A stretch of DNA of 64,000 nucleotides, from positions 1-64,000 of the forward strand of contig JAHQXB010000063.1 of assembly GCA_029856435.1 (NCBI GenBank), read 5' to 3'. The notes beneath the pieces are model-generated. The model saw only the letters and a program-made list of their open reading frames with translations, made no database searches and was not told where the DNA came from. Position numbers and translations under genes: made by a program. The DNA is from Candidatus Jordarchaeia archaeon (lineage in GTDB: Archaea > Asgardarchaeota > Jordiarchaeia > Jordiarchaeales > Jordiarchaeaceae). Shown here one piece after another: positions 1,326 to 50,782 of the stretch. The stretch's first letter is position 1; every line of letters begins with the position of its first letter.

Positions 1326-1709
1326 AAATGGAAATAGGATAGGGGTAGGCCCTAAAGAGCTTCCCCCAACATGAGGCTCTGTTGAATAATTTTAATTTTT
1401 TAAATATTGGTTGTTTTTTGGAAATTTTTCAAATTTGACGGTGTAAAATTATAAAAAATTCATCAATATGTTAAAGGAAATTGAAAAAAATAAAACTTTT
1501 TCAATAGAGCCCGTGAGAGGACCCCACGTGTAGTGCAGCTTAACACTTCCGATGCCTCCTCCACTCCTCAGGCGCTAAGGTTTTTCATGGATGGATGTTC
1601 TTCGCCATATGGGAGTTAAGAGTATTTGGGTTTTTGTTATTAATTTTGTATATAGTAAGATTTATAGGCTTTCTCTAATAACTTTAGTTTTGTTTTGGAG
1701 GAATTCTAG

Positions 1710-47611: not shown

Positions 47612-48982
47612 ATGACACAAACGCAAAAAGGAGAAAAATTTGAAGTCAAAGACCTAAAACTAGCACCAAGCGGACGAGCAACAATTGAGTGGGCAGAATC
47701 AAGAATGCCCGTGCTCATGCAAATAAGAGAGAGGTTCCGAAAAGAAAAACCGCTTAAAAACACCATAGTAGGAGCATGCCTCCATGTAACAAAAGAAACA
47801 GCAGTTCTTGCAAAAACCCTGAAAGCTGGAGGTGCAGAAGTCTACCTCTGTGCCTCAAACCCCCTATCAACACAGGACCATGTAGCCGCCGCACTGGTAG
47901 AAGAAGGAATAAACACATTCGCCTGGAAAGGCATGGACTACGAAGGCTACTACCGAGCAATAGCCAACGTTATTAAGGGAGAACCGAACATCACACTAGA
48001 CGACGGCGCCGACCTAGTATCAACCTTAATCAAACTCAAAAGAGGAGAAACCGGCGAGGAAATCAAGGTAGTTAAGAAAATTCTTGGAAGCCGAACAGAC
48101 TGGGCGGACAAAGTATGGGCCGGAGCCGAGGAGACCACAACGGGCGTAATCCGCCTTAGAGCCATGGCAAAAGATAACGTGCTACTATACCCAATTATAG
48201 CTACAAATGATACCCCCACAAAATGGGAAACATAAACACCCCCCGTGTTTAAGCCCAAATTTGACAACCTGTGGGGAACTGGGCAAAGCACCATAGACGG
48301 CATACTGAGAGCAACAGCAGACCTTATCGCGGGCAAAATTTTTGTAGTCGCAGGGTATGGCCATTGCGGTAGAGGCGTAGCGCTAAGAGCTAAGGGGCTA
48401 GGAGCGAGAAGAGTCATCATATGCGAGATAAATCCACATCGAGCCTTAACAGCCGCCTTAGAGGGTATGGAAGTAATGCCCATGAGGGAAGCCGCAGAGG
48501 TGGGAGACATTTTCGTAACCGCCACAGGATGCAAGAACGTCATAAATGCAGAACATATGAAAAAGATGAAAAACGGAGCAGTGATGTGTAACACAGGTCA
48601 CTTTAATGTGGAAATAAATATACCTGACTTGGAGAAAATCAGCGTTAGCAAGAGAGAGATAAGACCACTAGTCGATGAGTACACACTGGAGGATGGAAGA
48701 AAAATCTACCTACTAGCCCAAGGCAGGCTTGTGAATCTAGCATGTGCTGAGGGACACCCAAGCGAAGTTATGGACATGAGCTTTTCTGATCAGGCTTTAG
48801 CTGTGGAGTGGATTGTTAAGAATAGGGATAAGCTGTCTGGGATGGGTAGTGTGGTTTTGGATATTCCTGAAGAGATTGATAGGACTGTTGCAGAATTGAA
48901 GTGTAAGGCTATGGGTCTTAGATTAGATGTTTTGACCCCTGAGCAGGAAGCTTATTTGTCGGGCTGGGCTGAAGGAACCTAG
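47612..48982 (+). CDS. ahcY: S-adenosylhomocysteine hydrolase, intron-containing (exons 47612-48229 and 48260-48982; 446 aa)
   Basis: [30 protein letters not shown], spliced [37 protein letters not shown]. Confidence 0.95.
48230..48259 (+). other. 30-nt BHB intron in ahcY (contains in-frame TAA)
   Basis: TGGG-AAA-[CATAAACAC ccccc GTGTTTAAG]-CCCA-AAT. Confidence 0.92.
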
Positions 48983-49460: not shown

Positions 49461-49663
49461 AGGAATCCTCTCTATTGTATTTTTGTGTAGGAAAGGATAT
49501 GAACCCCTCGAAATTTAATAGGCTGATTTCATTATTGGGGGAGGTAAGATGTATAGGAAAGTTTTAATTACGTTTTTAGGATTAAATTTTGCAGATATTT
49601 GGCGTTGATTGTTGATTTTTGTGGTTTGGATGTTGATGTTAATGTTGATTGGAGGAGAATCTG

Positions 49664-50782
49664 ATGGATACTGAGGAAAAGGTTCAGCGTGTCTTGCGTG
49701 GCTTGAGTGAGGTTATTACTGTTGAGGATTTGCGCAATTTGTTTGAGGTAGATAACCACCCTAAGGCTTACATAGGTGTTGAGCCTTCTGGATAAACCTT
49801 TTAGGCTTTCTAGGGTTCCAGAATATTTCATTTGGGCTGGGTGGTTTGGGCCTGGAAGGTTCAGGATTTGGTTCTTTGTGATGTGGATATGCATGTTCTC
49901 GAAGCGACTTGGCATGCTAAGATTAATGACAAGTTTGGTGGAAACATGGATACCATACACACCTGTGCAAAGTATATTGAGCACTGTTTACAAGCGTTGG
50001 GTGTAGATATTGGTAGGGTTCGTTTTCCAAAGGCTGAGGATCTTATGGATAGTTTGGATTATTGGGCCACAGTGATAAACATTGCTAAAAACACTACGCT
50101 GGCACGTATTAAGAGAGCTATGAGTATTATGGGCCGCAAAGTAGACGATGCTGAATCGGATTATTCAAAAACGCTTTATCCTTGCATACAAGTGGCTGAC
50201 ATCTTATATGCTGGTTTTAAGCTGTGTCTGGGTGGGACTGACCAGAGAAGAGCTCACATATTGGCGAGGGAGTTGGCTCCTAAGTTCGGCTTGGATTGGA
50301 AGCCGGTAGCGATTCACACTCCTCTCCTCATAGGCTTGGAGGGATTATCGAGGATGGAGGTTGAAGGTGTGAATGAGGATGTTTTAATGGAGGCCAAGAT
50401 GTCGAAATCCAAACCTCAAACAGCAATTTTTATACATGATAAGCCAGAGGAAATCAGGAGTAAAATCTCTGCTGCCTTTTGCCCACCTAAACAGGTAGAA
50501 TTCAATCCAATAATTGAAATAAATAGGCTTCTTCTTTTTTCCAGAGAAGGTTTCATTCTTCATGTGGAACGTGAGGAAAAATTTGGAGGGGATGTAGATT
50601 TTGAGAGCTTTGATGAATTGAAATCTGCCTACAGCGCCGGTAATCTCCATCCTCTGGACTTGAAACGGGCTACTGCAGAGGCACTCATTGCACTGCTGAA
50701 AAATGTTAGACAACATTTTGAAAAGAATAGTGAAGCCCGTAACCTTTTAGAAACATTAAAAAAGGCTACAGTGACCCGGTAA
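49664..50782 (+). CDS. tyrS: Tyrosyl-tRNA synthetase, intron-containing (exons 49664-49793 and 49824-50782; 362 aa)
   Basis: Spliced KAYIGVEPSGLFHLGW, YPCIQVADI, GGTDQRRAH, KMSKS, LHPLDLK. Confidence 0.95.
49794..49823 (+). other. 30-nt BHB intron in tyrS HIGH-motif region (creates in-frame TAA)
   Basis: CTGG-ATA-[AACCT..GGGTT stem-loop]-CCAG-AAT. Confidence 0.92.

What the first reader, a model, noticed from the sequence alone, without database searches (positions are those of the whole stretch)
49794..49823. Essential gene test case: BHB intron in the HIGH-motif region of tyrosyl-tRNA synthetase
Seen: EPSG|TAA-creating insert|(L)FHLGW; BHB CTGG/CCAG with bulges ATA/AAT; the spliced codon TTA rebuilds PSGLFHLG. 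Established: TyrRS is essential and cannot function without this motif. Inference: unless a second tyrS exists, the cell must splice this mRNA, which is the strongest argument that these introns are functional and ties translation capacity to EndA activity.
Basis: partly seen in the sequence, partly recalled or inferred. Interest (0 to 1): 0.93.

Follow-up and report, generated by a model that had tools for sequence, protein, structure and literature searches.

The report
tRNA-type mini-intron splitting Asgard tyrS
The only tyrosyl-tRNA synthetase gene of this Asgard archaeon (Jordarchaeia/Freyarchaeia group) is interrupted, two codons before its catalytic HIGH motif, by a 30-base stop-filled insert shaped like a tRNA intron, so this essential enzyme can almost certainly be made only after the mRNA is cut and rejoined by the tRNA-splicing enzymes; no RNA data were available to show this directly.

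Summary
Window 49794-49823 is a 30-nt insert in tyrS with three in-frame stops. It can form a bulge-helix-bulge (BHB): helix CUGG:CCAG, bulges AUA and AAU, and a 6-bp inner helix. Cutting after the second base of each bulge gives EPSG-L-FHLGW, which matches intronless homologues without a gap.

Main evidence:
- Five sequence variants exist in related genomes, two of 30 nt and three of 31 nt (frame-shifting). The same rule restores the frame and the Leu codon in all five.
- Both exons are under strong purifying selection (dN/dS 0.08-0.14 at dS 0.8-1.3).
- There is no second tyrS, either here or in a closed relative genome.
- An (alpha-beta)2-like EndA pair and RtcB are present.
- cbf5 in this class carries a covarying BHB insert at the same codon position as the experimentally proven crenarchaeal cbf5 intron.

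Caveats:
- No RNA evidence was available.
- The tyrS helices are conserved but do not covary.
- The outer helix is only 1 bp, so this is a relaxed BHB.
- A generic BHB motif is not enriched in the genome.

The scan has already followed up this same tyrS insert in sister genomes, and many other mRNA inserts in this genome. Verdict: a new member of a known kind (cbf5-type archaeal pre-mRNA intron), found in Asgard and in an essential gene.

The parts
49651..49655 (+). Shine-Dalgarno-like GGAGG, 8 nt upstream of the tyrS start codon
   Evidence: Read directly from the sequence. Its function is inferred.
49664..49793 (+). tyrS exon 1: 43 codons plus the first base (T) of the split Leu codon
   Evidence: Matches NF006330 profile positions 1-43, E 4.9e-10. 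dN/dS is 0.09-0.26 between species.
49788..49791 (+). 5' strand of the central 4-bp helix (CUGG), lying in exon 1
   Evidence: Pairs with 49818-21 in the MFE and centroid folds. Invariant in all 5 variants.
49792..49794 (+). 5' bulge AUA, with the predicted cut between 49793 and 49794
   Evidence: BHB rule, cut after the second bulge base. The middle base is U or C in relatives, giving UUA or CUA, both Leu.
49794..49823 (+). The 30-nt BHB-type intron, with in-frame TAA, TAG and TAG
   Evidence: Present in all 6 genomes of the genus and in metagenome relatives. Absent from the sister family and, in the listed rows, from all other genomes of the 251-genome phylum sample.
49795..49817 (+). Inner hairpin: 6-bp helix AACCUU:AGGGUU closing an 11-nt loop
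   Evidence: All pairs are kept in 5 variants, while the loop varies in sequence and length by 1 nt.
49818..49821 (+). 3' strand of the central helix (CCAG), lying in the intron
49822..49824 (+). 3' bulge AAU, with the predicted cut between 49823 and 49824
   Evidence: BHB rule. Invariant in all variants. It is closed on its 3' side by a single U49787:A49825 pair only.
49824..50782 (+). tyrS exon 2: the last two bases of the Leu codon, then F-HLGW (HIGH signature), KMSKS, and the stop codon
   Evidence: NF006330 at 360 bits (cut-off 220), profile positions 45-339. Pfam PF00579. Best solved relative is 2CYA TyrRS at 2e-103, with HIGW at the same place.

Best explanation
Window 49794-49823 is a tRNA-type (bulge-helix-bulge) intron in the tyrS pre-mRNA. 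The transcript folds locally into a 4-bp helix (CUGG:CCAG) flanked by two 3-nt bulges and stacked on a 6-bp intron hairpin. The heteromeric splicing endonuclease (a catalytic EndA alpha subunit with a crenarchaeal-type loop, plus a beta-like paralogue) cuts after the second base of each bulge. RtcB then joins the 2',3'-cyclic phosphate and 5'-OH ends, rebuilding a Leu codon (U|UA) and the open frame EPSG-L-FHLGW. Unspliced mRNA would yield only a 43-residue peptide. The intron was probably gained in the ancestor of this genus. Shown here: the sequence anatomy, the conservation pattern, the single gene copy, purifying selection, and the presence of the enzymes. Inferred: the cleavage and ligation themselves.
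For: (1) Removing the insert by the BHB rule gives a gapless match to the TyrRS profile (positions 1-43 and 45-339). It also matches intronless homologues that read GVEPSG-L-FHVGW (Heimdall), GVEPTG-L-MHLGH (Hermod) and GYEPSG-L-VHIGW (Acidilobaceae).
(2) There are five distinct variants, two of 30 nt and three of 31 nt (frame-shifting). All give EPSGLFH(L/I)GW under the same rule, and the bulge base varies U/C synonymously (UUA/CUA).
(3) dN/dS is 0.08-0.14 for the whole gene at dS 0.8-1.3, for both exons, so the gene is alive.
(4) There is only one tyrS in this genome and in the closed congener genome.
(5) In the insert, stems and bulges are invariant while the loop is saturated with changes and an indel.
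(6) The productive register is more stable than the competing one, -8.7 against -6.6 kcal/mol.
(7) The machinery is present. One EndA paralogue is most similar to the A. pernix catalytic subunit 3P1Z_B and includes its loop region. A second paralogue lacks the catalytic His. RtcB is present. PMC5829648 reports (alpha-beta)2 EndA with the L1 loop in Asgard.
(8) Internal control: cbf5 in all 11 genomes of the class has an insert of 27-35 nt obeying the same rule. Five of its six inner pairs covary (0/500 shuffles), and it sits at the same codon position as the experimentally spliced crenarchaeal cbf5 intron.
(9) All 12 clusters at >=80% identity in the protein collection are truncated calls of 214-336 aa, while more distant homologues are 347-387 aa.
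Against: No transcript, junction read or circular intron could be examined. The tyrS helices show no compensatory changes, only two one-sided ones, so the structure is supported by conservation and not by covariation. The outer exon-exon helix is a single U:A pair, so the 3' bulge is not properly closed and the motif is 'relaxed'. The 81-nt region does not fold better than shuffles (z = 0.26). A competing BHB register (49795-49822, 28 nt) exists that would leave a stop. Generic BHB motifs are not enriched in the window or genome, and a genome-wide ORF-rescue test did not separate the true rule from decoys. A narrower signature derived after the fact gave only 7 against 2.
Confidence: 0.87

Rival explanations
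1. tyrS is a pseudogene, or a gene broken by a recent insertion, and the BHB-like shape is a coincidence.
For: There are three in-frame stops. BHB-like motifs are common by chance, about 1 per 240 nt per strand.
Against: dN/dS is 0.08-0.14 on both exons at near-saturated dS. The insert is kept in all 6 genomes of the genus and in metagenome relatives. It is the only tyrS, including in a closed genome. Length changes between 30 and 31 nt never disturb the rule-derived frame.
Confidence: 0.02
2. The insert is skipped or read through at the ribosome. This could be translational bypassing of the T4 gene 60 kind (take-off at GGA followed by a stop and a hairpin), or stop-codon recoding.
For: GGA-TAA followed by a hairpin superficially resembles the gene 60 take-off site.
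Against: There is no matching GGA landing codon at the 3' end of the insert. In the G007 and L056 variants the codon after GGA is CAA, not a stop, and the gap is 31 nt. Bypassing from GGA would not rebuild the conserved Leu. Readthrough would need TAA and TAG both recoded, would add 10 residues inside the HIGH region, and is impossible for the 31-nt variants.
Confidence: 0.02
3. The enzyme is made as two polypeptides, a 43-aa N-terminal piece and a C-terminal protein restarted inside exon 2, that assemble non-covalently.
For: A TTG at 49832 opens a 316-aa ORF. Gene callers annotate such truncated proteins.
Against: A restart at 49832 would drop the first His of the HIGH signature. That TTG is ATA or ATT in the G006, L055 and L056 variants, so no start is conserved there. 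Nothing would explain the conserved BHB geometry or the rule-consistent 30/31-nt lengths.
Confidence: 0.03
4. The insert is removed from the RNA, but by a machinery other than EndA/RtcB.
For: The outer helix is nearly absent and the tyrS helices do not covary, so recognition by EndA is not proven.
Against: The cut sites demanded by the protein are exactly those of the BHB rule in 5 variants. The same rule works for rtcB, ahcY and cbf5. 30 nt is too short for self-splicing introns (established knowledge). Relaxed motifs are known substrates of (alpha-beta)2 EndA (PMC5829648, PMC2738675).
Confidence: 0.05

Closest known systems
cbf5 pre-mRNA BHB intron of Crenarchaeota (Desulfurococcales, Sulfolobales; Watanabe 2002, Yoshinari 2006, Yokobori 2009 = PMC2738675)
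   Same: A short intron inside a coding sequence that disrupts a catalytic-motif region. It has a relaxed BHB at the exon-intron borders, a variable interior with conserved borders, an organism with heteromeric (alpha-beta)2 EndA, and lengths not restricted to multiples of three. The published cbf5 size range of 16-44 bp includes 30-31 nt.
   Different: It is in a different gene (tyrS, an aminoacyl-tRNA synthetase) and a different phylum (Asgard). The tyrS insert is restricted to one genus. Splicing has not been shown experimentally here. The tyrS intron has no sequence relationship to cbf5 introns.
Archaeal tRNA BHB introns, including the non-canonical multi-intron tRNAs of Freyarchaeia/Atabeyarchaeia (PMC11291895; bioRxiv 10.64898/2026.10.13.758758)
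   Same: The same 3-4-3 bulge-helix-bulge geometry and cut positions, the same size class, and the same presumed enzymes. The lineage is already known for an extreme tRNA intron load.
   Different: The host RNA is an mRNA without a tRNA body. The outer helix must be built from coding sequence and is almost absent. The product is a restored reading frame, not a tRNA fold.
HVO_1309 5'UTR intron of Haloferax volcanii (PMC7714728; PMC10485636)
   Same: An mRNA cut at BHB sites by the archaeal splicing endonuclease.
   Different: That intron lies in the 5'UTR, not the coding sequence. The enzyme there is a homodimeric alpha'2 type that requires a strict BHB.
HAC1/XBP1 unconventional mRNA splicing in eukaryotes (Ire1 plus tRNA ligase/RTCB)
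   Same: Non-spliceosomal excision of a short intron from an mRNA at stem-loop sites, followed by RtcB-family or tRNA-ligase joining that changes the reading frame or protein product.
   Different: The endonuclease there is Ire1, not EndA/TSEN. That splicing is a regulated stress switch, and no regulation is shown here.

Membership tests
Archaeal BHB (EndA-type) intron | Two 3-nt bulges on opposite strands separated by a 4-bp helix | tested here: met
   CUGG:CCAG with bulges AUA and AAU. Invariant in 5 variants.
Archaeal BHB (EndA-type) intron | Flanking helices on both sides (strict hBHBh' form) | tested here: not met
   The inner helix h' is 6 bp, but the outer helix h is a single U:A pair. 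The motif is therefore a relaxed form, which (alpha-beta)2 enzymes accept according to PMC5829648.
Archaeal BHB (EndA-type) intron | Cuts at the symmetric bulge positions yield a functional mature RNA | tested here: met
   The frame and conserved Leu are restored in the 30-nt and 31-nt variants. The product aligns without a gap to the profile and to homologues.
Archaeal BHB (EndA-type) intron | Base pairing maintained by compensatory change | tested here: inconclusive
   100% of cells are paired, but there are no double changes and only 2 one-sided changes among 5 variants.
Archaeal BHB (EndA-type) intron | Host encodes the splicing endonuclease and the RtcB ligase | tested here: met
   Two EndA paralogues, one alpha-like with the loop and one beta-like lacking the catalytic His, plus one RtcB.
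Archaeal BHB (EndA-type) intron | Excision and exon ligation observed in RNA | not testable with these tools
   No transcript data were reachable. The protein collection holds no full-length product of this clade.
Archaeal-type tyrosyl-tRNA synthetase (NF006330) | Score above the curated cut-off, with HIGH and KMSKS signatures | tested here: met
   Exon 2 alone scores 360 bits (cut-off 220), and exon 1 matches positions 1-43. HLGW and KMSKS are present. The solved TyrRS 2CYA also has HIGW.
T4 gene 60-type translational bypass | Matched take-off and landing codons flanking the gap, with a stop after take-off | tested here: not met
   There is no GGA landing codon. In two variants the codon after GGA is CAA.

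The most novel reading that the evidence does not exclude
In this Asgard lineage, tRNA-type splicing is a routine and obligatory step in expressing core genes (tyrS, rtcB, cbf5 and others). Because the ligase gene itself needs splicing, the system could form a self-referential gate that couples the output of translation components to EndA/RtcB activity. That would be a prokaryotic analogue of regulated unconventional mRNA splicing in the closest relatives of eukaryotes.
Probability: 0.12. Interest if true: 0.88.

Novelty: new member of a known kind. Interest (0 to 1): 0.64.

Why it matters
The papers I could search document EndA-type splicing inside a coding sequence for one archaeal gene only (cbf5), plus one 5'UTR case. 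A 2023 review says more probably remain to be found (PMC10485636). A stop-filled intron in the single copy of an essential aminoacyl-tRNA synthetase gene, kept under strong purifying selection, shows that protein-gene splicing by the tRNA machinery is obligatory in an Asgard archaeon and not a curiosity of one crenarchaeal gene. It has a practical side as well: gene callers truncate this enzyme in every public genome of the clade, so annotation pipelines need a BHB-aware step. It also gives a simple assay target for mRNA splicing in the lineage closest to eukaryotes, namely the junction CUGGAU|UAUUUC. The paper on the closed Freyarchaeia genome reports introns only in tRNA genes (PMC11291895).

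Tried and rejected
- Generic BHB scan of the window: 532 hits against 595 +/- 30 in dinucleotide shuffles, so the motif alone has no power.
- Genome-wide 'ORF-rescue' test, true cut rule against 10 decoy cut rules: no difference at any threshold. The background comes from chance hits that bridge adjacent genes and from off-frame open stretches. A narrower signature derived after the fact (A at bulge-1 position 3, AA at the start of bulge 2, 24-36 nt) gave 7 against 2 at >=60 codons on both sides. It recovered tyrS, rtcB and cbf5 blind, but also unverified hits such as HypD on C136.
- Whole-region folding is not better than shuffles, z = 0.26.
- Covariation in the tyrS intron: none.
- Look-alikes of the insert in its own genome, to test a mobile-element origin: only chance matches of 15 nt or less.
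- Search for a full-length product from spliced RNA or an intronless allele in the 5.8-billion-protein collection: none found.
One metagenome scan replaced it and gave two new variants.
- ARAGORN and Rfam at gathering thresholds found no RNA genes in the window.
- The pseudogene, bypass/readthrough and split-protein readings were considered and rejected, as set out under the rival explanations.

Full report
**What is in the sequence.** From the ATG at 49664, which is preceded by GGAGG at 49651-55, the frame reads MDTEEK...AYIGVEPSG. It then meets TAA at 49793-95, followed by TAG at 49802-04 and TAG at 49811-13, and continues ...IFHLGWVVW... down to the stop at 50780-82. The upstream 43 codons match positions 1-43 of the archaeal tyrosine-tRNA ligase model NF006330. 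The downstream part, starting at Phe, matches positions 45-339 with 360 bits against a cut-off of 220. Pfam gives PF00579. The best solved relative is TyrRS 2CYA at 2e-103, whose signature at the same place is HIGW.

**The structure.** CUGG (49788-91) pairs with CCAG (49818-21), and these pairs appear in both the MFE and centroid folds. By the tRNA-intron convention the 5' bulge is AUA (49792-94) and the 3' bulge is AAU (49822-24). A 6-bp helix, AACCUU:AGGGUU, closes an 11-nt loop inside the intron. The outer exon-exon helix is a single U49787:A49825 pair, so this is a relaxed BHB and not the strict form. A second register, shifted by one pair (49795-49822, 28 nt), is possible and would leave GGA-TAA in place. 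It has fewer pairs and is less stable, at -6.6 against -8.7 kcal/mol. The 81-nt region as a whole does not fold better than shuffles, z = 0.26.

**Is it more than chance?** The motif by itself is not. A scanner for '4 Watson-Crick pairs, two 3-nt bulges, at least 4 inner pairs, 15-60 nt' finds 532 hits in the window against 595 +/- 30 in dinucleotide shuffles. What is improbable is the coincidence with the protein. Hits with an inner helix of at least 6 bp occur at about 1.4e-5 per start-and-length combination. Only two 30-nt excisions leave an open frame with one residue between Gly and Phe (Ile or Leu), and the BHB rule selects the one giving Leu. Leu is the residue found in intronless homologues: GVEPSG-L-FHVGW in Heimdallarchaeota, GVEPTG-L-MHLGH in Hermodarchaeota, GYEPSG-L-VHIGW in Acidilobaceae, and EPSG-L-AHL in the sister family.

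**Comparative evidence.** The organism belongs to the Jordarchaeia/Freyarchaeia group of Asgard archaea. Its closest records are named Candidatus Jordarchaeia, Freyarchaeota and Jordarchaeum madagascariense. All six genomes of the genus carry the insert, while four genomes of the sister family do not. In a sample of 251 genomes of the phylum, only this genus shows it among the listed matches. Adding two metagenome contigs gives five distinct intron sequences. Two are 30 nt and three are 31 nt, and the extra base lies in the loop. The 31-nt versions shift the frame, yet cutting after the second bulge base gives EPSGLFH(L/I)GW in every case. The middle bulge base is U or C, which makes the junction codon UUA or CUA, both Leu. 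Across these variants the central helix, both bulges (apart from that base) and the base of the inner helix are invariant, while the loop is saturated with substitutions. A formal count gives 100% of cells paired, no compensatory double changes and two one-sided changes. The structure is therefore supported by conservation, not by covariation.

**The gene is alive and alone.** After rule-based splicing, pairwise dN/dS is 0.08-0.14 for the whole gene, and 0.09-0.26 for the 43 exon-1 codons, at dS of 0.8-1.3. This genome (97.8% complete) has two PF00579 genes. The second, on contig C121, is TrpRS, with NF008926 scoring 404 bits against a cut-off of 320. The closed genome of a congener has the same pair, and its tyrS carries the insert. 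In the large protein collection, all 12 clusters at >=80% identity are N-terminally truncated calls of 214-336 aa, whereas homologues at <=59% identity are 347-387 aa. No intronless allele and no spliced-RNA product of this clade is on record. One of these calls, P0005, runs in another frame through a further 31-nt variant.

**Machinery.** The genome encodes two EndA paralogues. The one on C104 is most similar to the catalytic subunit of the Aeropyrum pernix heterotetramer (3P1Z_B, 157 bits). It aligns through that enzyme's loop region (GQPL...KP...) and keeps Tyr, His and Lys. The one on C64 has no His at the catalytic position and so looks like a structural beta subunit. This matches the published statement that Asgard archaea have (alpha-beta)2 EndA with the L1 loop, the form able to cut relaxed motifs (PMC5829648). 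One RtcB gene is present.

**Support from other genes.**
- *rtcB* itself carries a 30-nt insert of the same build: CCCG:CGGG helix and bulges ACA and AAG. Its rule-based removal gives LPD-A-HQGYG.
- *ahcY*, at window 48230-48259, has the same build.
- *cbf5* on C73 was found by a blind scan, with the DKCLD domain upstream and TruB_N, TruB_C_2 and PUA downstream. All 11 genomes of the class carry an insert there, of 27 to 35 nt, and all give GTL-D-PKV. Five of its six inner-helix pairs show compensatory changes. 95.9% of cells are paired, against at most 58% when partners are slid. No shuffle out of 500 reaches the covariation score. [quoted passage not shown] That intron is experimentally spliced in Crenarchaeota (PMC2738675, PMC10485636). 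So this lineage carries the one proven type of archaeal coding-sequence intron at the homologous site, built like the tyrS insert.

**Negative results that limit the claim.** A genome-wide test asked whether rule-based removal of generic BHB hits rescues long open frames more often than ten decoy cut rules. It found no difference. A narrower signature, defined after seeing three cases, gave 7 against 2. The tyrS insert has no look-alike elsewhere in the genome, so I see no sign that it belongs to a repeated element.

**Rivals.**
- A pseudogene is excluded by the selection data and the single copy.
- Ribosomal bypassing or readthrough is excluded by the absence of a landing codon, by the variants in which CAA rather than a stop follows GGA, and by the 31-nt lengths.
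- A two-piece enzyme would lose the first His of the HIGH signature. The only nearby start codon (TTG at 49832) is also not conserved.
- Excision by some other machinery remains formally possible.

**Comparison with what is known, and verdict.** This works like, and by its tested features belongs to, the class of archaeal BHB introns in its relaxed form. The closest precedent is the cbf5 pre-mRNA intron. The papers I could search report such introns inside coding sequence for cbf5 only, plus one 5'UTR case (PMC7714728, PMC10485636). Papers on this lineage report tRNA introns only (PMC11291895; bioRxiv 10.64898/2026.10.13.758758). The tyrS case is therefore a new member of a known kind, in a new phylum and in an essential gene. 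The scan had already followed up the same insert in sister genomes and many other mRNA inserts in this genome. I checked those leads myself where I cite them.

Noticed in passing
G000:C73:22783-22813 (minus strand); L049 / L081:2285-2326: cbf5 carries a 31-nt BHB-rule insert that splits the catalytic Asp codon as G|AT, the same site and phase that Yokobori 2009 gives for the crenarchaeal cbf5 intron. It is present in all 11 genomes of the class at 27-35 nt. Five of its six inner-helix pairs covary (0/500 shuffles).
   Followed up: yes
G000:C93, L015 about 1545-1590 (minus strand): The only rtcB gene has a 30-nt insert with an in-frame TGA: CCCG:CGGG helix and bulges ACA and AAG. Rule-based removal gives LPD-A-HQGYG, so the splicing ligase would need splicing of its own mRNA.
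   Followed up: partly
window 48230-48259: The ahcY gene just upstream of tyrS has a 30-nt insert of the same build: TGGG:CCCA helix, bulges AAA and AAT, and a 23-nt interior. Its inner helix has a mismatch at the second pair, so my strict scanner missed it.
   Followed up: partly
window 49795-49822: A competing BHB register, shifted by one pair (UGGA:UCCA, 28 nt), would leave GGA-TAA and a dead mRNA. It is 2.1 kcal/mol less stable than the productive register. How the enzyme avoids it is unknown.
   Followed up: partly
window 1-64000: ARAGORN and Rfam (gathering thresholds) find no tRNA or other RNA gene in the window, although first-stage notes speak of seven tRNA introns here. Heavily interrupted tRNA genes may be invisible to these tools.
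   Followed up: no
L008-L011 (sister family) against the window tyrS: The TyrRS of this genus is 50-53% identical to intronless enzymes of Heimdall- and Hermodarchaeota and Acidilobaceae, but only 42% identical to that of the sister family in the same order. This suggests that tyrS was replaced or diverged strongly in one of the two families.
   Followed up: partly
G000:C136:1384-1411 and G000:C24:15011-15038 (minus strands): These are narrow-signature BHB hits of 28 nt with more than 170 open codons on both sides. C136 has HypD (profile 29-351) downstream and no Pfam family upstream. They could be introns or chance bridges between adjacent genes.
   Followed up: partly
protein P0005 (public metagenome assembly): A gene call of 336 aa starts in another frame upstream (MLSLLDKP...) and runs through a stop-free 31-nt insert variant into the exon-2 frame. 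This produces a chimeric N-terminus in the public record.
   Followed up: partly
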